This document shows positions 1-13,374 of a stretch of DNA of 13,374 nt, one piece after another (position 1 is the stretch's first letter; every line of letters starts with the position of its first letter). Source of the DNA: a virus; IMG/VR virus record IMGVR_UViG_3300045988_050262. One strand, given 5' to 3'. The notes beneath the pieces were generated by a model that saw only the letters and a list, made by a program, of their open reading frames with translations, had not been told where the DNA came from and did not search any database. The translations under genes were made by a program, and so were the position numbers.

Positions 1-79
1 TCCCCAATTGACGATAAACCGTTCATAGCACTTTAACACAGTAAAGCGTTACTGTACTACACTTTGTTAAATTATTCAC
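1..79. repeat. Left inverted terminal repeat (55 bp perfect, imperfect to ~79)
   Basis: nt 1-55 (tccccaattgacgataaaccgttcatagcactttaacacagtaaagcgttactgt) equal the reverse complement of 13320-13374. Homology continues to ~79 with one mismatch (pos 56) and a 2-nt indel. It contains a 7-bp hairpin, acagtaa-agcg-ttactgt, at 38-55. Confidence 0.95.
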
Positions 80-122
80 GGACACCATACGGGTTGAGGG
101 CGGAGCCCTCAGGCGGTGCGCG

Positions 123-146
123 CACTTTAACACACTAAAGTGTTAC
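123..146. repeat. Second, internal direct copy of an ITR sub-element (copy 1 at 29-52)
   Basis: cactttaacacaGtaaagCgttac (29-52) versus cactttaacacaCtaaagTgttac (123-146), 22/24 identical. Copy 2 forms a 7-bp hairpin, cacttta-acacac-taaagtg (123-142). Confidence 0.85.
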
Positions 147-172
147 GTAGTGCCACCACCTCTATCATGTGT

Positions 173-201
173 AGTATACCATAACCGGGTGGTGATGTCA
201 A
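173..201 (-). promoter_or_regulatory. Consensus sigma-70/sigma-A type promoter on the minus strand, firing toward the left terminus
   Basis: The minus strand reads TTGACA (201->196), a 17-nt spacer, then TGgTATACT (extended -10; hexamer 178->173). The hexamers and spacing are the same as the promoters at 5388 and 13238. A 7-bp inverted repeat (154-160 / 188-194) brackets the -10. Confidence 0.65.
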
Positions 202-262
202 TATCAATTTTATACTTATGGCGGGTATTAAAAGAAGCGATAACCGATTGGAAGTTTTTTAC

Positions 263-310: not shown

Positions 311-511
311 ATGTCTAAAACATATTATCGTGTAGTCCATCCGTCCGGCTAGTTCGTCTGCGATGGGGATTACAGACCGAAGCGTTATTGGTCACTTGAG
401 GACGCAATACAGCGGGCCCGCGTAATGCCCGCGATCTATGAAAAGCCGATTGAAATACGCAAGTTTCCGGACCCGTACATAACAAGGAGGTATATAGATG
501 CCCGACAATAG
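311..511 (+). CDS. Small early ORF interrupted by an in-frame TAG at 350-352 (13 codons before it, 52 stop-free codons after); readthrough product or amber pseudogene
   Basis: AGGAGGTG (298-305) lies 5 nt before ATG 311. The frame reads MSKTYYRVVHPSG-TAG-FVCDGDYRPKRYWSLEDAIQRARVMPAIYEKPIEIRKFPDPYITRRYIDARQ-TAG. Its end overlaps the next gene start (498) by 14 nt. The only in-frame restart after the TAG is an ATG at 425, which has no SD and would give only 28 aa. Confidence 0.4.
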
Positions 512-1305: not shown

Positions 1306-3309
1306 ATGAAATACTACACTACGGCGGATTTTCCGCTATTCGCAATTAAAAACTGTGATATCGAGCGCCGTAGTGTAGGCAATCAGGGCACCACCGTTCG
1401 GCGCGTATACAAGCAGATGTTGACTGGCTTTGACATTGAAACGACCCGTATCCCCGCCGAAGATCAATCCTTTATGTACGTTTGGCAATGGTATTTCGAG
1501 GGCGTGGGCGTTGTCATCGGTCACACCTGGCGCGAACTTCGTCTATTCATAATGCAGATCGAAGCCGTACTTGACAATGCCATGCTGGTGGTGCTGGTCC
1601 ATAATCTTTCATACGAATTTCAGTTTCTGCGCGCGGTTCACGAATGGAAAACCGATGAAGTATTTGCCGTCAAGTCCCGGCGCGTGCTTAAAGCTACTAT
1701 GAACGGTAAACTTGAGTTTCGTTGTACCATGCTCCACTCTAATATGTCTCTTGCTACCTGGACGGCCAAAATGGGCGTGGAGCACGGCAAGCTTTCCGGC
1801 GACGATTTCAATTACAATATTATGCGCTACCCAGACACACCGCTGTCCGAAACTGAGCTTGCGTATATCACCAATGACGTGGTGGGCATGGTCGAAGCTT
1901 ATCGCGCCGAAATGGAGCGAGACAGTGATAACCTCTATAAAATCCCGCTCACGTCCACCGGTTACGTTCGGGCCGACAGTAAGCGCGCCATGCGCAACAG
2001 CGGTAAGGTGGTTAAGAACATATTGCCGGACTATGATATTTACAAGATACTCCGCAAGGCGTTCCGTGGCGGCAATACCCACGCCAACAGATATTATTCC
2101 GGGATGATACTTGAAAATGTGAAGTCCGCCGATCGTTCCAGTAGTTACCCGGATGTTATCTGCAATTGTAAATTTCCCATGACCAAATTCCGGGAAATCA
2201 TTAATCCTGATATATGGAAAGTCGAAAAGATGATGAAAGACCGCCGTGCGCTGGTATTCACTATCCTGCTCCACGACGTGGAGCTTTCCGACCCATACAA
2301 CGGTTTCCCCTATATCAGCGTTGCAAAGTGCGCGGCCTGTGTTCGTTCTGGTAATGATAACGGTCGAGTGTTGAATGCTGACTTTATAGAAATGACAGTG
2401 ACCGATATTGACTGGCGGATTATCAAAAAGCAGTATGAATTTTCTGACGTGCAGGTGACGAAAGCTTATTGGAGCCATTACGGCTATTTACCTCGCGCTC
2501 TGATCGTGAACACAATAGACTACTACACCAAGAAAACCAACCTTAAAGGTGTGGACGGCCAACAACTACTCTATGACAAGTCCAAAAACCTATTGAATGG
2601 TATTTACGGCATGATGGCGCAAGATCCGGTGAAGCAGGATATTATTTACCATGAAGGCACTGGCGAATTCACCGAGGATGACGCGCCGCCTGAAAGTCTG
2701 CTTGCGGAGTTCTCCAAACACGCATTTCTTGCCTATCAGTGGGGCGTATGGATAACAGCATGGGCGCGTCTTCGTTTACAAGAGGGCATAGACCTATGCG
2801 GGCATAATTGTGTGTATGTGGACACTGACAGTTGTAAATATCTGGGTGTGGTGGACTGGACGGCTTATAACCGCAAGCGCGTCCGTGCCAGCGCTCAGAG
2901 CGGCGCATACGCCACAGACCCACACGGAAAGCGCCACTATATGGGCGTATTCGAGGACGAGGAGCCATACACCAAGTTCAAGACGCTGGGCGCAAAGAAG
3001 TATGTCTTTGAACACGCGGACGGCAAGCTCCAAGTTACCATTGCGGGCGTCAACAAAAAGAAAGGTGGTGCGGAGTTATCTCGCCGCGGCGGCATTGAAG
3101 CATTCCGCGAGGGTTTTACATTCATAGACGCAGGAGGTACCGAGAGTGTCTACAATGACTCTACGCCATACGCAGAACGTATGTTGAACGGTCATAAAAT
3201 CGAAATGTCCCCTAATATCTGCATTCGGCCTAGCACGTATACTATTTCTTTGACGGATGAATATAGAAATTTGTTAGAAACTTGCAAAATTTCTGTTGAC
3301 AATTTGTAG
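1306..3309 (+). CDS. Protein-primed family-B DNA polymerase (phi29 gp2-like), 667 aa
   Basis: Motifs, each paired with its phi29 counterpart: ExoI GFDIETT. ExoII HNLSYEFQF (phi29 HNLKFDGAF). ExoIII AYITNDV (YIKNDI). AFRGGNT (AYRGGFT). Motif A DRSSSYP (DVNSLYP). Motif B KNLLNGIYGMM (KLMLNSLYGKF). Motif C YVDTDS (YCDTDS). KxY GAKKYVF. Confidence 0.96.
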   Translation: MKYYTTADFPLFAIKNCDIERRSVGNQGTTVRRVYKQMLTGFDIETTRIPAEDQSFMYVWQWYFEGVGVVIGHTWRELRLFIMQIEAVLDNAMLVVLVHNLSYEFQFLRAVHEWKTDEVFAVKSRRVLKATMNGKLEFRCTMLHSNMSLATWTAKMGVEHGKLSGDDFNYNIMRYPDTPLSETELAYITNDVVGMVEAYRAEMERDSDNLYKIPLTSTGYVRADSKRAMRNSGKVVKNILPDYDIYKILRKAFRGGNTHANRYYSGMILENVKSADRSSSYPDVICNCKFPMTKFREIINPDIWKVEKMMKDRRALVFTILLHDVELSDPYNGFPYISVAKCAACVRSGNDNGRVLNADFIEMTVTDIDWRIIKKQYEFSDVQVTKAYWSHYGYLPRALIVNTIDYYTKKTNLKGVDGQQLLYDKSKNLLNGIYGMMAQDPVKQDIIYHEGTGEFTEDDAPPESLLAEFSKHAFLAYQWGVWITAWARLRLQEGIDLCGHNCVYVDTDSCKYLGVVDWTAYNRKRVRASAQSGAYATDPHGKRHYMGVFEDEEPYTKFKTLGAKKYVFEHADGKLQVTIAGVNKKKGGAELSRRGGIEAFREGFTFIDAGGTESVYNDSTPYAERMLNGHKIEMSPNICIRPSTYTISLTDEYRNLLETCKISVDNL

Positions 3310-3980: not shown

Positions 3981-4214
3981 ATGACGGTCACTTTTTTAAC
4001 TGATAACATTAAGATGGGCCGCACGGGTATTGCTTACCCGTTTGTGTTGGAAGTTCCTGAGTTCGGCCAGATTGCCGGGAGAGTGACCGAGACGCGGAGG
4101 GGAGCCACGCAGGTGGCTTTCCCCTCTGGTGTCAAAGCGGCCAGCGCAACGGCGGGGTTTATTCTCTATGAGTTTCAGAAGCAGGTGATAGTGAGTGAAA
4201 ATATTTGCACCTAA
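3981..4214 (+). CDS. Hypothetical protein (77 aa)
   Basis: AAGGAGGT lies 7 nt before ATG 3981. It overlaps the ATPase start by 20 nt. No motif recognised. Confidence 0.7.
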   Translation: MTVTFLTDNIKMGRTGIAYPFVLEVPEFGQIAGRVTETRRGATQVAFPSGVKAASATAGFILYEFQKQVIVSENICT

Positions 4215-5214
4215 CGGCTATTTGGATATGGAAAAAATCATTTCCAGCCCGTACTATTTCATTATGGTGCTGACAGGTCGCGGCACCGGTAAGACGTTCG
4301 GTGCTCTGGATTATCTCCGTAAACGCGCTACCAAGGGCGACCGGTTCATGTATTTTCGCCGCCTACAAACACAGATTGACATTGTGGCAAAGCCGGAGTT
4401 CTCCCCATTCAAAAAGCTGGACGCGGTACGCCACACTGTCACAGACGTAAAAAGCCTATCGAAGCAGACCGCCGGTTTCTATGATGATAGCACCGGCGAT
4501 CTGTTAGGCTATGCGGCGGCGGTTTCCACGTTCGCCAATTTGCGTGGTTTTGACGGTTCCGATATAGGCACTATCTTATTTGAGGAATGTATCCCGAAGC
4601 TCTACGAGTCAAAAATTCGCGACGAGGGCGCGGCTCTGATGGACGCTTACGAGACGATCAACCGCAACCGCGAGTTGGAGGGTGACGAGCCGGTGAAGCT
4701 GGTTTGCATTGGAAACAGTAACAACTCTGGCGCAGATCTTTTGTGCTATCTCAATCTTGTTTCCCGCGTAGAGAAAATGAAAAAGAACGGTACAATGGTC
4801 TACACGGACCCCGCGAGGTCCCTACTTCTAATCGTCCTGAAAGACTCCCCTATGGGCGAAAAGAAAGCAGATACAGCCCTTTACCGATTTTTGGGCCGCG
4901 AGAGCGACTATGCAAAGGCGGCACTTGACAACGAGCCGCCGGAGGAATGGGGCGAGTTCACCGGCAAGCTCCCATTAAAAGAGCTATCCCCGGTTGTGTC
5001 CGTAGGCGAGATTACAGTCTATCGGCATAAATCCCGCCACACGCTCTACGTGTCTACGCACAAGCAGGGAAGCCCGCCCACCTACGGCACCGGTCAAAAT
5101 GACATGAAGCGTGTCAAGACTCTCTATCGTTGGATATGGCAGGCGTATATAACCCAGCAAGTCATTTTCGAGGAAACGGTCTGTGAAATTCTATTCACTA
5201 AGTATTTTAGTTAG
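4195..5214 (+). CDS. DNA encapsidation (packaging) ATPase, phi29 gp16-like, 339 aa
   Basis: AGGTGA lies 6 nt before GTG 4195. Matches to phi29: Walker A LTGRGTGKTF (GARGIGKSY). RFMYFRRL (QFIYVRRY). Walker B ILFEECI (IVFDEFI). NRNRE...LVCIGNSN (NRERVRCICLSNA). Confidence 0.9.
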   Translation: MKIFAPNGYLDMEKIISSPYYFIMVLTGRGTGKTFGALDYLRKRATKGDRFMYFRRLQTQIDIVAKPEFSPFKKLDAVRHTVTDVKSLSKQTAGFYDDSTGDLLGYAAAVSTFANLRGFDGSDIGTILFEECIPKLYESKIRDEGAALMDAYETINRNRELEGDEPVKLVCIGNSNNSGADLLCYLNLVSRVEKMKKNGTMVYTDPARSLLLIVLKDSPMGEKKADTALYRFLGRESDYAKAALDNEPPEEWGEFTGKLPLKELSPVVSVGEITVYRHKSRHTLYVSTHKQGSPPTYGTGQNDMKRVKTLYRWIWQAYITQQVIFEETVCEILFTKYFS

Positions 5215-5224
5215 GAGGTTGACA

Positions 5225-5401
5225 ATGGCAAAGAGTGATAAATGGGAACGTTTGAAAGAGGAAATGAACCGTTTGGCAGATGAATTCGATACACTTCCAA
5301 ATCCCACCGCGGAGCAGTGCGGAATGTGTCAGGCATACAATTATGTTTATGTGCGGATGCGCGCACTTGAGTTATCTGAAAAAAAGCTTGACAAAGCCTA
5401 A
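5225..5401 (+). CDS. Hypothetical protein (58 aa)
   Basis: AGGAGG (5211-5216) precedes ATG 5225 (MAKSDKWERLKEEMNRLADEF...), ending in TAA 5399-5401. The upstream start at 5183 in the ORF track has no SD and overlaps the ATPase. Confidence 0.65.
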   Translation: MAKSDKWERLKEEMNRLADEFDTLPNPTAEQCGMCQAYNYVYVRMRALELSEKKLDKA

Positions 5402-6887: not shown

Positions 6888-8105
6888 ATGAATAGCATGA
6901 CCTTTTCCCAGGCGGCAACCGTTCTGACCGATATCGTCAAGCAGGCGACCGGCCAGGAAGCGATCACCGCGATCACCACGCCGCAGGATTTTGTAGCGGT
7001 AGCGCAGACTGCGTTGAAAACGGGCTATGACCCCGTTATCAACGCAATTTCACAGATTTGGAGCCGCACGATCTTTTCCGTGCGCGACTACCGGACGCCC
7101 ATGGACTCCCTTATGATGGATATGCCCCGCTACGGTAACGCCCTGCGGAAGCTGTCCCCCGTCAGTGGTGAGATGGTGGACGATGATCGTTATAAGTACC
7201 CCGTGGCCTATGACGCCACCAAGACCGGAAACCCTCTGGGCAACGGCGAGAGCGTAGACATGTATGCCATTAAGAAGCAGGAGACCCTGCAAACCAATTT
7301 CTATGGCACCGCTGTCTATGAGCAGCATTACACCATGTTCCGCGATCAGTTTGACGCCGCCTTTGAAAGCGCGGACGAGTTCAGCCGTTACAATGCTATG
7401 TGCATGACGGAGCGTATGAACGACCGCGAGAGCTACAAGGAAAGTATCGGACGCGGCATTCAGGCCAACTTCATTGGCGGCCTGCTGTCCGAGGGTAACG
7501 CGAGTCGAGTTATCCACCTGCTGACCGACTACAACGCCGCCACCGGCCTGTCCCTGACTGCGCAGAGTGTGTACCAGCCCGCCAATTTTGCGCCCTTTAT
7601 GCGCTGGGTGTACGCGCGTATCAAGACGATCTCCCGGATGTTCGCAGAGCGTTCCCAGATGTTCCAGACCGTTATCAATACCAAGCCGGTCTTGCGGCAC
7701 ACCAACCCGGAAAATCTGCGTATCGCGCTCTATGCGCCCGCTATGGACCAGATGAACGCCATGGTGCTGTCCGACACCTATAACGACAACTATCTCCAGT
7801 ACGCGACCTATGACGCGGTTAATTTCTGGCAGAATATCGAGACGCCTGACACCATCGAAATCGCCCCCGTGTATACCGACACCACCGGTGCGCTGAAGCA
7901 GGTGGAAGCGGCGAAGCCGGTGGAGAAAGCGGGTATTTTCGGCGTCATCCATGATCGTGACGCTCTGGGTTATGCCATCGTCAACGACTGGGCGCAGCCC
8001 ACTCCGTTCAACGCCCGCGGCGGCTATTGGAATGAGTTTTATCATTCCACGTTCAAGACCATTTCCGACAATACCGAGAAAGCCTGTGTCCTGTTGCTGG
8101 ACTAA
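6888..8105 (+). CDS. Major capsid protein, phi29 gp8-like (HK97 fold), 405 aa
   Basis: The C-terminal segment HDRDALGYAIVNDWAQPTPFNARGGYWNEFYHSTFKTISDNTEKACVLLL parallels phi29 gp8 [47 protein letters not shown]. Strong SD, and a terminator downstream. Confidence 0.9.
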   Translation: MNSMTFSQAATVLTDIVKQATGQEAITAITTPQDFVAVAQTALKTGYDPVINAISQIWSRTIFSVRDYRTPMDSLMMDMPRYGNALRKLSPVSGEMVDDDRYKYPVAYDATKTGNPLGNGESVDMYAIKKQETLQTNFYGTAVYEQHYTMFRDQFDAAFESADEFSRYNAMCMTERMNDRESYKESIGRGIQANFIGGLLSEGNASRVIHLLTDYNAATGLSLTAQSVYQPANFAPFMRWVYARIKTISRMFAERSQMFQTVINTKPVLRHTNPENLRIALYAPAMDQMNAMVLSDTYNDNYLQYATYDAVNFWQNIETPDTIEIAPVYTDTTGALKQVEAAKPVEKAGIFGVIHDRDALGYAIVNDWAQPTPFNARGGYWNEFYHSTFKTISDNTEKACVLLLD

Positions 8106-8153: not shown

Positions 8154-9542
8154 ATGAGCTTTAAAGTCAGACTCTATACAATCGAAAAATATGACCGGAG
8201 CACGAAACAGCCAACGGGGGCGGGGAAAGAGTATGAATGCCTGGCTAACACTCCGTTCTCCGTCCTCTCTCCCACACTGCGGCTGGCTACCGGGGACGCG
8301 GTGAGCGTATATAATTATGTATATGTGCCCTCCGTGGACCGGTTTTATTTCGTCAATGAGTGGACCTATTCCCGCGGCTTGTGGGAGGCGGAATGCGCTG
8401 TTGATGTGCTGGCCAGTTGGAAAAGCTATATCGGGGACAGTACGCTGTACGTGTTGCGCTCTGCGGCACAGTCGGACGGCTCTGTTATCGATATGGCATA
8501 CCCCACCACGGCGAAATTGGACGTGGTGCAGAAAGCGTTTACGCTGGCGGGGAGTGATCAGGAGTCGTGGAATTATGACGGTGTTAAAGGCACTTATGTT
8601 GTCGGTATCGCGGGCCGAACGGGCGGAGCCGTTACATACTGGGCCATGAACACAGCTATGTGGGCGAATTTCACAAATGAAATTTTTGGCACCGGCGAAT
8701 ACGCGGGCATAGTGGACGAAGCCGAAAAGCGGAATTTTAACCCGTTGCAGTATTTTGTATCCGCTAAATGGTTCCCGTTCGATATTCAGACCGCGGGAGG
8801 TACAGCCCCCATCACATTGGGCTGGTGGACGATGAGCAGTAAAGCGTTTCAGTTTGAAGCGTCCAGCTCCAAACCTATGTTTTCCGGCACGATCACTATT
8901 CCGAAACACCCGCAGGCCGCGGCACGCGGAAAGTACATGAATTCTGGCGCGTTTTCCGCCTACGCGCTCAAGCTTCCCTGTTTCGGACTGGTGCAGATAC
9001 CGCCCGCCCTGATTATAGACACTACAAGTCTGGAAGTAGAGATTTGGACGAATATCGCCGACGGGACTGGAATGCTGAAAGTAACGGCGAATAATCGCGC
9101 CGAGCCTATTATTTTCTTGGAAGCGCCTGTGGGGTGCCCCGTACAGCTTTCTCAGGTGTCAGCAGGTTTGTTGTCCTCTATCGCTAATCGCGCGCAAGCG
9201 GGCGGCGGTTTGTGGGGGGCGGTCGTCCAAGCGGCACGTTCCGCCATTACGGAAATTGGTGAGGTGGTCGGCCTGCCTGTAGAAAATTCTACGGCAGTAG
9301 CGACCAACGGCACCAACGCAAGCCGCGCTATGACGAAAATCACGCCCGCATTGCTGGCGACATTTACCTATGCCACTGACGAGGACGTACAGCACCGGGG
9401 CAGGCCGCTGTGTAAGCTGGTAAAGGTCTCCACGTTGTCCGGTTACATTCAGGCGGCGGATGGTGACATTCTGGCTCCCGCTACGGAGAGCGAGTTACGG
9501 AGCATTAAAGCGTATTTGGAGGGAGGTTTTTTCTATGAGTAG
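8154..9542 (+). CDS. Tail knob / tail tube protein, phi29 gp9-like, 462 aa
   Basis: DRFYFVNEWTYSRGLWEAECAVDVLASW parallels phi29 gp9 [31 protein letters not shown]. The C-terminal ...VSTLSGYIQAADGDI...ELRSIKAYLEGGFFYE parallels ...YVQTKDCFISGDI...LQEIRTIFDNGITLW. Confidence 0.8.
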   Translation: MSFKVRLYTIEKYDRSTKQPTGAGKEYECLANTPFSVLSPTLRLATGDAVSVYNYVYVPSVDRFYFVNEWTYSRGLWEAECAVDVLASWKSYIGDSTLYVLRSAAQSDGSVIDMAYPTTAKLDVVQKAFTLAGSDQESWNYDGVKGTYVVGIAGRTGGAVTYWAMNTAMWANFTNEIFGTGEYAGIVDEAEKRNFNPLQYFVSAKWFPFDIQTAGGTAPITLGWWTMSSKAFQFEASSSKPMFSGTITIPKHPQAAARGKYMNSGAFSAYALKLPCFGLVQIPPALIIDTTSLEVEIWTNIADGTGMLKVTANNRAEPIIFLEAPVGCPVQLSQVSAGLLSSIANRAQAGGGLWGAVVQAARSAITEIGEVVGLPVENSTAVATNGTNASRAMTKITPALLATFTYATDEDVQHRGRPLCKLVKVSTLSGYIQAADGDILAPATESELRSIKAYLEGGFFYE

Positions 9543-10476
9543 TTACGGCGGCGCGCCGGTATTCTACGATCACCAGAACGTCGCACTAACGGAGGTCTCC
9601 CCCTCTACGGTCCATAGCCAGAACACCAAGCTTGTGCGCTACTACAAGCGCTATCTGCTACAGAAAGCCATGTCGGTGTTTAAGTGGAAGCTTCCGGAAC
9701 ATTGGAACAGGGACTATCTGTTGTATTCCCTGTACTGCTGGGGCGTGGTGGCCGTGTTTAATACAGATCGTTTCGGCGTCATTCCGCAGATGTGCGGACT
9801 GGCCGGTTATGGCGTATTCTATCAGCCCACGCGGGCGATCATTGCAAATTCGCTTATCAATCGAAGCATTGAGGCGAGAATTGGCGAGACGTGCGAATTG
9901 CTCAAGCTCCAGTCGGATTTCGGCGGCATTATGGATATGGTGGCACAGTATGCGGAGCTGATGGCACTCACGTCTGAAATGGTATCCATGAATGTGGTCA
10001 ACTCAAAGCTGTCCTATGTGTTCACGTCCGGGAATAAGGCGGCGGCGGAAAGCTTCAAGAAGCTGTACGACAAGATCACCAGCGGCGAGCCCGCTGTTGT
10101 GGTTGATAAGGCGCTTATGCTCCCGGATGGCTCCAAGGCGTGGGAAGCGTTTGAACAGAATTTGCGGCAGAATTTCATAGCCGGAGACGGCCTGTCACTT
10201 CTGCGGCAGATCGAAAACCAGTTTGCCACGGATATCGGTATCCCGAACGCCAACACCGAGAAGCGCGAAAGGGCTGTCGTGGACGAGATCAACGCGAATA
10301 ACGTTGAGACCTATTCAAAATGTGCGCTGTGGTTGGAGTCCTTGCAGGACGGCTGTGAGCGCGTGAAGCGGATGTTTGGCGAGTCGCTGGGCGGCGAGCT
10401 GTCCGTTGACTGGCGTTTCCAGCCAGTGGTTGAGAAGCCGGAGAACGGCGGGGAGGTAGACGAAGATGAAAAGTAG
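9535..10476 (+). CDS. Portal / upper collar connector, phi29 gp10-like, 313 aa
   Basis: GGAGGT lies 7 nt before ATG 9535, overlapping the upstream stop (ATGAGTAG). GIPNANTEKRERAVVDEINANNVETYSK parallels phi29 gp10 [28 protein letters not shown]. The C-terminal tail is acidic. The ORF-track start at 9460 lies inside the tail knob gene. Confidence 0.9.
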   Translation: MSSYGGAPVFYDHQNVALTEVSPSTVHSQNTKLVRYYKRYLLQKAMSVFKWKLPEHWNRDYLLYSLYCWGVVAVFNTDRFGVIPQMCGLAGYGVFYQPTRAIIANSLINRSIEARIGETCELLKLQSDFGGIMDMVAQYAELMALTSEMVSMNVVNSKLSYVFTSGNKAAAESFKKLYDKITSGEPAVVVDKALMLPDGSKAWEAFEQNLRQNFIAGDGLSLLRQIENQFATDIGIPNANTEKRERAVVDEINANNVETYSKCALWLESLQDGCERVKRMFGESLGGELSVDWRFQPVVEKPENGGEVDEDEK

Positions 10477-13237: not shown

Positions 13238-13266
13238 TTGACAAACGCGATCAGGTGTGCTATACT
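13238..13266 (+). promoter_or_regulatory. Consensus promoter firing outward toward the right terminus
   Basis: TTGACA (13238-13243), a 17-nt spacer, TATACT (13261-13266), beginning 4 nt after the last stop codon. No gene lies downstream, only ~102 nt of ITR-containing sequence. Confidence 0.65.
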
Positions 13267-13294
13267 ATCCATGCTGGGTGGCGTAGCACACCTG
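13252..13294. repeat. 11-bp inverted repeat bracketing the -10 and start of the right terminal promoter (operator, or terminator for the last gene)
   Basis: caggtgtgcta (13252-13262) and tagcacacctg (13284-13294), separated by a 21-nt loop that contains most of the -10 (TATACT 13261-13266) and the predicted start. Confidence 0.55.
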
Positions 13295-13374
13295 TGAATA
13301 ATTTAACAATGAGTGTAGCACAGTAACGCTTTACTGTGTTAAAGTGCTATGAACGGTTTATCGTCAATTGGGGA
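13271..13374 (+). ncRNA. Candidate ~100-nt terminal run-off transcript through the right ITR
   Basis: Predicted start is 13271-13273. It contains the ITR hairpin (reverse complement of 38-55) and no credible ORF or terminator. Confidence 0.25.
13294..13374. repeat. Right inverted terminal repeat
   Basis: Reverse complement of nt 1-79. The last 55 nt (13320-13374) are a perfect match. The right copy carries 2 extra nt (tg, 13310-13311). Confidence 0.95.

What the first reader, a model, noticed from the sequence alone, without database searches (positions are those of the whole stretch)
1..201. Consensus promoter just inside the left ITR points outward and would make a ~165-nt structured terminal RNA (pRNA candidate)
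The minus strand carries TTGACA-N17-TGgTATACT (201->173). This matches the strongest internal promoters, yet only the non-coding left end lies downstream of it. phi29-type packaging motors (a gp16-like ATPase and gp10-like portal are both present here) need a prohead RNA. In phi29 that RNA is ~170 nt, encoded near the left end and transcribed toward it. The predicted transcript here is similar in size, position and orientation, and it contains several stems: 161-154/118-111, 123-142, 96-110 and 38-55. Alternatively, transcription into the origin could activate or regulate protein-primed replication, or the RNA could be antisense to nothing and simply insulate the end.
Basis: partly seen in the sequence, partly recalled or inferred. 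Interest (0 to 1): 0.75.

Follow-up and report, generated by a model that had tools for sequence, protein, structure and literature searches.

The report
Paired outward promoters at phage termini

Summary
The promoter is real: minus strand TTGACA(201-196)-N17-TGgTATACT(181-173), 11/12 plus an extended -10. Random sequences average 0.14 such sites per window, and none of 1500 had outward sites at both ends. In six close relatives the hexamers, the TG and the spacing are invariant apart from one -35 base in L006, while no spacer column is conserved, so the promoter is under selection. Nothing coding lies downstream. The pRNA reading is weak. Three of the four cited stems depend on a 67-nt insertion (82-148) that 97%-identical relatives lack. 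The folds show no phi29-type helix A or interlocking loops, although a phi29 control recovers both. No covariation is seen, but the test has no power. In other relatives the same terminal slot holds small protein genes or nothing. Cp-1 and asccphi28 have the same outward promoters in both ITRs, so this is a new member of a known but uncharacterised kind. One addition: each ITR carries a Rex-operator-like box just downstream of the start site, and unrelated 18-19 kb phages carry arrays of that box at their tips. The window probably lacks about 30 nt at each tip. Function is unproven.

The parts
196..201 (-). -35 hexamer TTGACA of the left outward promoter
   Evidence: positions 197-201 are invariant in 7 genomes and 196 changes only in L006 (TTGACG)
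173..181 (-). extended -10 TGgTATACT of the left outward promoter (TG 181-180, hexamer 178-173)
   Evidence: invariant in 7 genomes, while none of the spacer columns 182-195 is invariant
164..168 (-). predicted transcription start region (about 166, 7 nt after the -10), within a mostly conserved CATG
   Evidence: inferred from promoter geometry; sequences
82..148 (-). 67-nt block specific to this genome's left end. It holds the GC hairpin GAGGGCggaGCCCTC (96-110), a second copy of the 25-nt element (122-146) and one arm of the long stem.
   Evidence: absent from L001-L004; found in none of 301 fetched loci; fold
64..81 (.). Rex-operator-like palindromic box TTGTTAAATTATTCACGG in the left ITR (12 of 14 specified positions)
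   Evidence: consensus from PMC6391272 and PMC9600882; the same box occurs in arrays at the tips of unrelated 18-19 kb phages
28..52 (.). 25-nt iteron-like element GCACTTTAACACAGTAAAGCGTTAC in the ITR; it forms the ITR hairpin of the predicted RNA
   Evidence: it accompanies each box in the 46-nt tandem units of the 18-19 kb phages
1..81 (.). left inverted terminal repeat as present in the window. Positions 1-17 are the inner arm of a terminal palindrome whose outer arm lies beyond the window.
   Evidence: extension seen in L002 and L049
263..291 (+). probable early rightward promoter TTGCTT-N17-TACAAT, divergent from the outward promoter (-35 elements 62 nt apart), reading into the first gene at 311
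   Evidence: (largely conserved columns); inferred
13238..13266 (+). right outward promoter TTGACA-N17-TGcTATACT, 4 nt after the stop codon of the last gene
   Evidence: conserved in L049 and L242
13252..13294 (+). imperfect 20-bp hairpin overlapping the right -10 and the start of the right RNA
   Evidence: I20
13292..13309 (.). Rex-operator-like box CTGTGAATAATTTAACAA in the right ITR (13 of 14), at +20 to +37 from the predicted start at about 13273
13294..13374 (.). right inverted terminal repeat, including the 25-nt element at 13323-13347

Best explanation
Each end of the genome carries a non-coding terminal transcription unit. Host sigma-70/sigma-A RNA polymerase starts at a near-consensus extended -10 promoter just inside the ITR (about position 166 leftward and about 13273 rightward) and transcribes outward through four elements in turn: a short variable hairpin, a Rex-operator-like box, the iteron hairpin and a terminal hairpin followed by UUUCAUU. 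That terminal hairpin lies about 15 nt from the true tip, which is beyond the window. The product is a small RNA of about 125-135 nt, or about 180-195 nt from this genome's left end because of a 67-nt insertion. Its last roughly 110 nt are the same from both ends. This is the ORF-less form of the outward 'promoter - small gene - ITR terminator' cassettes found at the ends of related phages, and it has the same layout as the outward promoters annotated in both ITRs of Cp-1 and asccphi28. Shown: the promoters, their conservation, the absence of coding sequence and the comparative anatomy. Inferred: the start sites, termination at the terminal hairpin, and the role. My preferred role is an accessory one at the termini, not a structural part of the packaging motor. 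Either the act of transcribing across the protein-binding sites of the ITR matters, possibly gated by a host Rex-type repressor bound at +19 to +37, or the ITR RNA acts as a small regulatory RNA. Rough split: regulatory or cis role at the termini 0.3, other trans-acting small RNA 0.2, pRNA-like 0.2, no present function 0.1, other 0.2.
For: Promoters at both ends are 11/12 plus TG, which is very unlikely by chance. The hexamers, TG and 17-nt spacing are conserved in 7 genomes while no spacer column is. The left and right spacers are unrelated in sequence, so each promoter is maintained separately. No ORF lies downstream. Complete tips in L049 and L002 show the terminal hairpin (-17.1 kcal/mol) followed by UUUCAUU, 15-17 nt from the end. 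This is the positional counterpart of clear terminators (-25 to -34 kcal/mol with U runs) 12-30 nt from the tips of L009, L020, L024, L026, L027 and L294. Relatives carry small ORFs in the same slot under the same kind of promoter: L294 at both ends, L026 at both ends (paralogues), L020, L024 and L008. ORF-less units recur in L009 and L273. Cp-1 and asccphi28 both have 12/12 plus TG outward promoters in both ITRs. The sporadic distribution among phages with orthologous connector and ATPase argues for an accessory role. The Rex-like box sits at +19 to +37 in every clade member except the window's left end. The same box is enriched about 48-fold at the tips of unrelated phages whose PolB is only 23% identical.
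Against: There are no transcript data, so start and end points are predictions. The terminal hairpin of the window itself is inferred from relatives, because the window stops in its loop. The ITR is nearly invariant within the clade, so RNA-level and DNA-level constraints cannot be separated. The Rex assignment rests only on a 12-13 of 14 match to a literature consensus; the host is unknown, and relatives L294, L009 and L026 as well as Cp-1 and asccphi28 have outward promoters without such a box. In the L009 clade the right-end promoter copies are weaker (10/12 and 9/12), which fits a trans-acting product better than a cis role needed at each end. A packaging role cannot be excluded, since the termini are the only place in this genome where a non-coding RNA of 100 nt or more could be encoded.
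Confidence: 0.5

Rival explanations
1. The terminal RNA is a prohead (packaging) RNA, or a functional analogue of one, that bridges the gp10-type connector and the gp16-type ATPase as in phi29. It happens to be encoded twice because it lies next to the ITR.
For: The motor is phi29-type: PF05894 ATPase, PF05352 connector and Phi29_MCP. pRNA genes of Bacillus podoviruses mostly lie at a genome terminus next to a promoter, often without a terminator (PMC9965433), and phi29 pRNA lies at 201-318 on the minus strand. The size range is similar. Full-length RNAs of L002 and L049 are predicted to form a three-way junction. The termini are the only non-coding stretches of 80 nt or more. Cp-1 has the same ITR promoters, and from memory, unverified here, its genome paper reported a small RNA with a pRNA-like fold. 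In asccphi28 the pRNA-contacting ATPase residues are said to be conserved.
Against: No helix A and no interlocking loops on predicted folds, while both are recovered in the phi29 control. The predicted junction's closing helix has three G-U pairs and needs run-off to the very last base. Left and right RNAs differ in their 5' parts, and this genome's left RNA carries a 67-nt insertion. The L009 unit is only about 75 nt with a single hairpin. L294, L026, L020 and L024 fill the slot with protein genes, and L028, L038, L041 and L300 have no outward promoter, although their motors are orthologous. The connector N-terminus MSSYGGAPVFYDHQN lacks an RKR-type basic motif. There is no covariation. A 2024 review regards pRNA as unique to phi29 and related Bacillus phages (PMC11476376).
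Confidence: 0.2
2. Transcription itself activates or regulates the protein-primed origins, and the RNA is a by-product. Outward transcription uses the 5'-TP-linked strand as template and displaces the strand whose 3' end is the template for terminal-protein-primed initiation, or it clears proteins bound to the ITR.
For: The promoter is maintained independently at both ends. The transcribed content varies (insertion, variable 5' hairpin, ORFs in relatives) while outward transcription is the constant feature. The strand geometry follows directly from the sequence. Iteron-like and box motifs lie in the transcribed stretch.
Against: A terminator-like hairpin lies before the last 15-30 nt in all complete tips, so polymerases seem to be kept off the extreme end. 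Many relatives have no outward promoter. The right-end copies are weaker in the L009 clade. No precedent was found in the searchable literature.
Confidence: 0.15
3. The units are empty relics of terminal accessory-gene cassettes: the small gene was lost, the promoter has not yet decayed, and there is no present function.
For: The nearest outgroup, L294, and several other relatives have promoter - small ORF - terminator at the same places. The window has no homologue of those small proteins.
Against: The hexamers, TG and spacing are conserved in 7 genomes whose spacer and flanks have diverged almost completely. Both ends keep 11/12 plus TG with unrelated spacers. The same ORF-less state is seen independently in L009, Cp-1 and asccphi28.
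Confidence: 0.1

Closest known systems
Streptococcus phage Cp-1, outward promoters annotated inside both 236-bp ITRs (NC_001825)
   Same: A consensus extended -10 promoter (TTGACA...TGaTATAAT, 12/12) points outward in both ITRs, about 143-150 nt from the tip. There is no ORF downstream (4 aa at most). A hairpin plus T-run lies about 25 nt from the tip, and GGGGAA / TTCCCC(C)AAT sits 33-39 nt from the tip as in the window clade. Both are protein-primed podoviruses with a gp16-type ATPase.
   Different: In Cp-1 the promoter lies inside a perfect ITR. Here it lies just outside the high-identity ITR and the two copies have unrelated spacers. Cp-1 has no Rex-like box at its termini. PolB is only distantly related. 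My recollection that the Cp-1 paper (J Virol 1996;70:3678) proposed a pRNA-like small RNA could not be checked, because the paper is not held.
Lactococcus phage asccphi28, putative promoters P1/P8 and terminators T1/T4 in the 577-bp ITRs (NC_010363)
   Same: Outward 12/12 plus TG promoters in both ITRs and an annotated outward terminator 23-75 nt from each tip, with no annotated gene between them.
   Different: The transcribed stretch is about 300 nt and contains an unannotated 54-aa frame. There is no Rex-like box at the termini. It belongs to a different family (Salasmaviridae).
phi29 prohead RNA (Rfam RF00044) transcribed from promoter A1
   Same: A small non-coding RNA gene near a genome end, transcribed towards that end from a strong host-type promoter in a phage with the same kind of packaging motor (PMC11476376; PMC5066667).
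   Different: phi29 has a single copy that stops 146 nt short of the tip. It has helix A, a three-way junction and interlocking CE/D loops, none of which are recovered here. There is no Rfam match.
Outward terminal accessory-gene cassettes of related uncultured phages (L294, L026, L020, L024, L008) and Amedibacillus phage AD70P2
   Same: The same slot, the same kind of consensus outward promoter, and the same ITR hairpin or terminator 12-30 nt from the tip, often at both ends.
   Different: Those units encode small proteins (42-106 aa; paralogous pairs in L026). Here nothing coding lies between the promoter and the terminal hairpin.
Rex operator (ROP) of Gram-positive redox-sensing repressor Rex
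   Same: An 18-bp palindrome, TTGTGAANNNNTTCACAA overall and TTGTTAANNNNTTAACAA in Clostridiaceae (PMC6391272, PMC9600882). The ITR box matches 12-13 of the 14 specified positions, lies next to a promoter, and in the 18-19 kb phages one copy overlaps a -35.
   Different: Binding is untested and the host is unknown. The last position is never A in the phage boxes. The site lies downstream of the start (+19 to +37) instead of over the promoter. No report of Rex operators in phage genomes was found.

Membership tests
phi29-type prohead RNA (pRNA, Rfam RF00044) | Match to the family covariance model | tested here: not met
   No hit at gathering score or at E <= 5-10 in the window or L049, nor in 11 relatives. 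Control: phi29 scores 145 bits. Cp-1 and P68 also give nothing, so the model has little reach outside Bacillus phages.
phi29-type prohead RNA (pRNA, Rfam RF00044) | Helix A formed by the paired 5' and 3' ends, which docks the ATPase | tested here: not met
   None of the first 15 nt pairs with the 3' end in the MFE folds of L002_L, L049_L or L049_R, and the fold of the window's own left RNA shows no 5'/3' closing helix. In phi29, 14 of 15 do. Prediction only.
phi29-type prohead RNA (pRNA, Rfam RF00044) | Three-way junction carrying two stem-loops | tested here: inconclusive
   A junction is predicted in the full-length RNAs of L002 and L049_R, but its closing helix (AAUAAUUUA/UUAGGUUGU, three G-U pairs) needs the very last bases of the genome. 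It is not predicted for L049_L or for the window's left RNA.
phi29-type prohead RNA (pRNA, Rfam RF00044) | Two loops with intermolecular Watson-Crick complementarity (CE and D loops) | tested here: not met
   No complementary 4-mers between loops in L002_L, L049_R, L009_L or Cp-1. The window's left RNA has only an AU-only match between single-stranded stretches. The same procedure recovers AACC/GGUU in phi29.
phi29-type prohead RNA (pRNA, Rfam RF00044) | Secondary structure conserved among relatives despite sequence divergence | tested here: not met
   0 of 23 consensus pairs show compensatory change and one substitution breaks a pair, though power is low because the ITR is nearly invariant. 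Three of the four cited stems depend on a 67-nt insertion absent from 97% relatives. More distant relatives have a different RNA (L009) or ORFs (L294 and others).
phi29-type prohead RNA (pRNA, Rfam RF00044) | Encoded near a genome end and transcribed towards it from a strong host-type promoter | tested here: met
   However, it is present at both ends, not once.
phi29-type prohead RNA (pRNA, Rfam RF00044) | Basic N-terminus of the connector that binds pRNA (RKR in phi29; Xiao et al. 2005, cited in PMC9965433; details from my own knowledge) | tested here: not met
   The likely true start at ATG 9535 gives MSSYGGAPVFYDHQN..., with no basic cluster.
phi29-type prohead RNA (pRNA, Rfam RF00044) | RNA bound to proheads; packaging sensitive to RNase | not testable with these tools
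   Needs purified proheads or an in vitro packaging system.
Sigma-70/sigma-A extended -10 promoter | -35 TTGACA, 17-bp spacer, TGn, -10 TATAAT-like, conserved among relatives | tested here: met
   11/12 plus TG at both ends. The elements are invariant apart from one -35 base in L006, and no spacer column is invariant, across 7 genomes. Chance expectation is 0.14 sites per window. Transcription itself was not tested.
Cp-1 / asccphi28-type ITR terminal transcription unit | Consensus outward promoter in or next to both ITRs, no gene downstream, hairpin plus T-run a few tens of nt from the tip | tested here: met
   Window and L049 compared with Cp-1 and asccphi28. The terminal hairpin of the window itself is inferred from L049 and L002.
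Intrinsic terminator | Stable hairpin directly followed by a U-run | tested here: inconclusive
   In L049 and L002 there is a 13-bp AU-rich stem (-17.1 kcal/mol) followed by UUUCAUU, which is weaker than in relatives (-25 to -34 kcal/mol with runs of 4-7 U). In the window the outer arm lies beyond the sequence.
Rex operator (ROP) | 18-bp palindrome TTGTGAANNNNTTCACAA / TTGTTAANNNNTTAACAA | tested here: met
   12 of 14 at 64-81 and 13 of 14 at 13292-13309. These are the only two sites with 2 or fewer mismatches in the window. In the 18-19 kb phages the density is 9.4 per kb at the tips against 0.20 per kb elsewhere. Consensus from PMC6391272 and PMC9600882.
Rex operator (ROP) | Bound by host Rex and released by NADH; host encodes Rex | not testable with these tools
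   The host is unknown. Relatives are binned with gut and rumen Clostridia MAGs, which is only a weak hint.

The most novel reading that the evidence does not exclude
The ITRs of two unrelated lineages of protein-primed gut phages carry binding sites for the host's redox-sensing repressor Rex: one box per end here, at +19 to +37 of the outward promoter, and arrays of 3-5 boxes per end in the 18-19 kb phages. Under this reading terminal transcription, and through it origin firing or the supply of a packaging or regulatory RNA, is tied to the host NADH/NAD+ ratio. Alternatively, the replicating phage DNA soaks up Rex and de-represses host fermentation genes. This would be a bacterial counterpart of adenovirus ITRs recruiting the host factors NFI and Oct-1 (that comparison is from my own knowledge).
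Probability: 0.15. Interest if true: 0.8.

Novelty: new member of a known kind. Interest (0 to 1): 0.45.

Why it matters
Whether phi29-type packaging motors outside the Bacillus phages need an RNA is still open. A 2024 review calls pRNA unique to phi29 and its Bacillus relatives, yet outward ITR promoters with no gene behind them have sat in the Cp-1 and asccphi28 annotations for years without a test. This window shows the same device in an uncultured 13-kb gut phage lineage, with clear evidence of selection on the promoter at both ends. It also provides natural variants (a 67-nt insertion, ORF-bearing relatives and relatives lacking the promoter) that define what any functional model must explain. 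If the terminal RNA turns out to be a packaging RNA, pRNA would be much more widespread and structurally diverse than thought. If it is not, it is a new class of terminal regulatory unit at protein-primed replication origins. The Rex-like boxes add a testable link between host redox state and phage genome ends.

Tried and rejected
1. Rfam scans of the window, L049 and 11 relatives found nothing. The only sub-threshold hit was Tymo_tRNA-like at 13.7 bits, E = 3.6, which is chance. The control showed the pRNA model finds phi29 but not Cp-1 or P68, so I give this negative little weight.
2. Covariation in the clade's terminal RNA has no power, because the ITR is nearly invariant. I did not build a covariance model for that reason.
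4. The terminator-arm scan GGGGAACYGGGWTTTT added only L273.
5. Exact-protein look-ups meant to recover the window's own contig and true tips found nothing on record.
6. GenBank phage searches with the whole window and with the left 330 nt found no match.
7. I considered a micro-ORF or leaderless mRNA. The ATG at 168-166 lies at or before the predicted start and is CATA in L001. A 21-codon frame from 87 has no RBS and lies in the insertion. Both rejected.
8. The minus-strand ORF 143-340 (65 aa) starts upstream of the promoter, so this promoter cannot express it. Rejected.
9. I considered the left-specific block being a mobile element, but it occurs in none of 301 fetched loci.
10. I considered TAG recoding for the first gene. 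TAG ends five other genes, so it is an ordinary nonsense change or an error.
11. I considered transcription-driven DNA entry as in T7. Rejected, because the promoters point the wrong way (inference).
12. MT835998 looked like a complete relative, but its ITR-like match is offset and chimeric-looking (171-251 against 1-81), so I did not use it.
13. The Cp-1 genome paper could not be read, and the asccphi28 paper was not found.
14. My first estimate of the insertion as 77 nt was wrong. Pairwise alignment gives 67 nt.
Full report
WHAT THE WINDOW IS. The 13,374-bp window is essentially a whole genome of a phi29-type, protein-primed podovirus. All plausible genes are on the + strand. They include a family-B protein-primed DNA polymerase (1306-3309; PF03175, phrog_1907), a Gp16-type packaging ATPase (4195-5214; PF05894), a Phi29-like major capsid protein (6888-8105; PF25622) and a gp10-type connector (about 9535-10476; PF05352). 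The ends form an inverted terminal repeat: 1-63 against 13312-13374 at 98%, continuing to about 79-81 with one indel. No GenBank phage is close. The polymerase is 51% identical to an uncultured human-gut phage and about 35% identical to Amedibacillus phage AD70P2 (Guelinviridae), Clostridium phage HM2 and the Salmonella astrithr group. IMG/VR holds seven near-identical relatives (97% polymerase identity; L001-L007, with full contigs L049, L210 and L242) and about forty at 43-53%. Eight more relatives are binned with gut and rumen MAGs, mostly Clostridia, which is a weak host hint.

THE OBSERVATION. Only three sites in the window reach 11/12. One is internal, at 5388. Random sequences of the same dinucleotide make-up average 0.14 such sites, and none of 1500 had outward sites within 250 nt of both ends. 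In the alignment of the window with L001-L006, the invariant columns fall on the -10 (172-178), the TG (180-181) and the -35 (197-201; position 196 changes only in L006). None of the 14 spacer columns is invariant, and the flanks have diverged heavily. The left and right promoters have unrelated spacers, so each is maintained on its own and not by ITR homogenisation. The promoters are therefore real features under selection, although transcription itself is untested.

THE PREDICTED RNA. From a start near 166 the left RNA would run 166 nt to window position 1. It folds well (-60.8 kcal/mol, z = -3.9), but the opposite strand does too (z = -3.1). The right RNA (13273-13374) is unremarkable (z = -0.75). 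Two corrections matter here. First, the full contig L049, and also L002, continue 28-32 nt beyond the window's first base, at both ends in L049. Reading outward the sequence is ...GTTTATCGTCAATTGGGGA|ACTGATTGACGATATTTCATTAGGTTGTCCC. The window therefore stops, at both ends, in the loop of a terminal palindrome and probably lacks about 30 nt per end. Second, a 67-nt block (window 82-148) is absent from L001-L004, where the promoter sits directly next to the ITR just as at the window's own right end. It occurs in none of the 301 loci fetched. The typical unit in this clade runs: promoter, a short and variable GC hairpin, UGUGAAUAAUUUAACAA, the ITR element hairpin, then the terminal hairpin UAUCGUCAAUUGG-GGAA-CUGAUUGACGAUA (-17.1 kcal/mol) followed by UUUCAUU, 15-17 nt from the tip. 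That gives an RNA of about 125-135 nt, or about 180-195 nt from this genome's left end.

IS IT A pRNA? I took the defining features from the Hill et al. review (PMC5066667): helix A closing the 5' and 3' ends, a three-way junction, CE and D loops that pair between molecules, and secondary structure conserved despite about 12% sequence identity. Rfam finds nothing in the window, L049 or eleven relatives. The control finds phi29 pRNA at 145 bits but nothing in Cp-1 or P68, so this negative carries little weight. On minimum-energy folds phi29 shows helix A (14 of the first 15 nt paired to the 3' end) and the AACC/GGUU loop pair. The terminal RNAs of the window clade, L009 and Cp-1 show neither. 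A three-way junction is predicted for L002 and L049_R, but its closing helix has three G-U pairs and needs the last bases of the genome, and it is not predicted for L049_L. Consensus folding finds 0 of 23 pairs with compensatory change, though the ITR barely varies, so the test lacks power. The connector's probable N-terminus (MSSYGGAPVFYDHQN) lacks the basic motif that binds pRNA in phi29 (the criterion is from my own knowledge and a reference cited in PMC9965433). In favour of a pRNA-like role: position and orientation match those of Bacillus-phage pRNA genes (PMC9965433, PMC11476376), the motor is of the right type, and the termini are the only non-coding stretches of 80 nt or more in this compact genome.

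COMPARATIVE ANATOMY. Complete or near-complete tips in more distant relatives show a common plan: a hairpin plus T-run oriented outward, 12-30 nt from the tip (L009, L020, L024, L026, L027, L028, L294). (G)GGGAA begins 33-39 nt from the tip in L049, L009, L020, L024, L300 and even Cp-1. What lies upstream of that hairpin varies.
- In L294, the nearest outgroup at 55% polymerase identity, both ends carry the same 12/12 plus TG outward promoter followed by an RBS and a small ORF.
- L026 has paralogous 65-66-aa ORFs at both ends (45% identical).
- L020 has a 42-aa Cys-rich ORF, L024 a 106-aa ORF and L008 a 93-aa ORF.
- AD70P2 has one outward ORF.
- L009 and L273, like the window clade, have a promoter and hairpin with nothing coding between them, predicting an RNA of about 75 nt. 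Their right-end promoters are weaker (10/12 and 9/12), and changes in the long hairpin preserve pairing.
- L028, L038, L041 and L300 have the ITR hairpin but no outward promoter.
The window encodes no homologue of the small terminal proteins. Outward terminal cassettes are thus common in this family, their content is variable, and the ORF-less form is sporadic. That distribution fits an accessory function better than an essential motor component, because connector and ATPase are shared by all of these phages.

KNOWN PRECEDENTS. The GenBank annotation of Streptococcus phage Cp-1 marks -35/-10 signals on the minus strand at 172-177/150-155 and on the plus strand at 19166-19171/19188-19193, which puts outward promoters inside both 236-bp ITRs. 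The sequence is TTGACA...TGaTATAAT (12/12 plus TG), about 143-150 nt from each tip, with no ORF downstream and a hairpin plus T-run near the tip. Lactococcus phage asccphi28 is annotated with outward promoters P1 and P8 and outward terminators T1 and T4 inside its 577-bp ITRs, again 12/12 plus TG. Actinomyces phage Av-1 has an annotated 'packaging RNA' near its right end. From memory, the Cp-1 genome paper (Martin et al., J Virol 1996) reported primer-extension evidence for a small RNA with a pRNA-like fold. I could not read it, so that remains a lead and not a result. Six other cultured protein-primed podoviruses show no outward site at 11/12 or better within 650 nt of their tips. The finding is therefore a new member of a kind that has already been noticed but never functionally resolved. 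I found no literature on outward promoters at protein-primed ITRs as a class.

AN UNEXPECTED LAYER: REX-LIKE BOXES. Scanning IMG/VR for the ITR motif TTGTTAAATTATTCAC (window 64-79) returned about twenty contigs of 17.6-19.4 kb with the motif 76-167 nt from a contig end. Their tips begin AAAGTAGTG (phi29's terminal repeat is AAAGTA, PMC11476376). They consist of tandem units of about 46 nt, each made of TTGTTAAAT(A/T)TTTCAC plus a CACTTTA...TAAAGCG element, the same two motifs that make up the window's ITR. These phages share only a 23%-identical polymerase with the window, so the motif is common to unrelated lineages, which points to a host factor. The box TTGTTAA-N4-TT(C/A)ACA matches the Rex operator at 12-13 of 14 specified positions. 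That operator is TTGTGAANNNNTTCACAA overall (PMC6391272) and TTGTTAANNNNTTAACAA in Clostridiaceae (PMC9600882). In the window the only two boxes with 2 or fewer mismatches are the ITR copies; since they are copies of one another, this amounts to a single event and is not compelling alone. In the 18-19 kb phages the density is 9.4 per kb in the terminal 450 nt against 0.20 per kb elsewhere. In the window clade the box lies at +19 to +37 from the predicted outward start, or at +86 to +103 at the window's left end because of the insertion. In the larger phages one box overlaps the -35 of an inward promoter-like site, and those phages have no strong outward promoter. L294, L009, L026, Cp-1 and asccphi28 have outward promoters without boxes, so promoter and box are separable modules. 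Binding by Rex is untested, and I found no report of Rex operators in phages.

BEST EXPLANATION AND RIVALS. I read the feature as a pair of non-coding terminal transcription units of the Cp-1/asccphi28 type: host polymerase fires outward from each end across the ITR and stops at the terminal hairpin or at the tip. The promoters, their selection, the absence of coding sequence and the family-wide cassette layout are shown. The start and stop points and the role are inferred. I favour an accessory role at the termini (regulatory or cis-acting, possibly gated by the box-binding host factor, or a small regulatory RNA) over a structural role in the motor, because the unit is sporadic among phages with orthologous motors, varies in length and 5' sequence, and fails the testable pRNA criteria. 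My confidence in this overall reading is 0.5. A pRNA-like role keeps about 0.2. Pure origin activation by transcription gets about 0.15; the strand geometry is suggestive, since the displaced strand is the one whose 3' end templates TP-primed initiation, but the terminal hairpin seems designed to keep polymerases off the last 15-30 bp. A functionless relic gets about 0.1, and the conservation pattern argues against it.

VERDICT. The pRNA interpretation is partly supported as a hypothesis by position, orientation and size, but not by any structural or comparative test available here. Novelty: a new member of a known, poorly understood kind. The Rex-like boxes shared with an unrelated phage group are the most original lead.

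Noticed in passing
window 13238-13374: A mirror-image outward promoter (TTGACA-N17-TGcTATACT) lies 4 nt after the last stop codon and would make an RNA of about 102 nt (about 133 nt to the true tip) from the right ITR.
   Followed up: yes
window 1 and 13374; L049 1-32 and 13777-13808; L002 1-28: Close relatives extend 28-32 nt beyond both window ends (...TTGGGGA|ACTGATTGACGATATTTCATTAGGTTGTCCC). The window probably stops in the loop of a terminal palindrome, a typical assembly break, and lacks the true tips, which begin 5'-GGG in L049 (right end), L009 and L038.
   Followed up: partly
L171, L181, L186, L201, L212, L217, L220, L234, L241 and others, terminal 450 nt: A separate group of 17.6-19.4 kb protein-primed phages (PolB only 23% identical; tips AAAGTAGTG like phi29) ends in tandem 46-nt units that carry 3-5 Rex-operator-like boxes per end (9.4 per kb against 0.20 per kb elsewhere). 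These share both ITR motifs with the window clade. One box overlaps the -35 of an inward promoter-like site, TTGTTA-N16-TGgTATAGT.
   Followed up: partly
window 347-349: The first early gene (311-508, about 65 aa) has an in-frame TAG at codon 14, where five of the six close relatives have CAG (Gln) and L006 has Glu. TAG is a normal stop in five other genes, so this is a nonsense mutation or a sequencing error, not recoding.
   Followed up: yes
outward-reading strand 33-39 nt from the tip: L049, L009, L020, L024, L300, Cp-1 (L303); window 1-10 in part: The motif (G)GGGAA (TTCCCC on the other strand; TTCCCC(C)AAT in both the window clade and Cp-1) sits at a nearly fixed distance from the tip in distantly related protein-primed podoviruses. 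It is usually the 3' arm or the loop of the terminal hairpin, and may be a conserved origin element.
   Followed up: partly
L026 88-288 (-) and 13340-13537 (+); L294 60-242 (-) and right end: Relatives carry small ORFs (61-66 aa) transcribed outward at both ends from consensus promoters. The two L026 copies are paralogues (45% identical). Their function is unknown, and the window has no homologue.
   Followed up: partly
window 202-262: The 61-nt stretch between the outward promoter and the divergent early promoter (TTGCTT 263-268 / TACAAT 286-291) is well conserved among close relatives and contains a TGTCA...TGACA inverted repeat in most of them (TGGCG in the window). It may be an operator.
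   Followed up: no
window 13252-13294: A 20-bp imperfect hairpin (80% complementary) spans the -10 and start site of the right outward promoter. It could end or process read-through late transcripts, or modulate the promoter.
   Followed up: no
L242 (full contig of L001), left end in window orientation: There is an odd 48-nt direct duplication of the segment TTGTTAAATTATTCACAGAGGGCTATCACCTCTATTATGTG at the contig end. It is either an assembly artefact or variation in the copy number of the box-containing unit.
   Followed up: no
Av-1 (L309) 16295-16402: The deposited annotation of Actinomyces phage Av-1 includes a 'packaging RNA' overlapping two minus-strand ORFs near the right end. This is another unverified pRNA proposal outside the Bacillus phages, and Rfam was not run on it here.
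   Followed up: no
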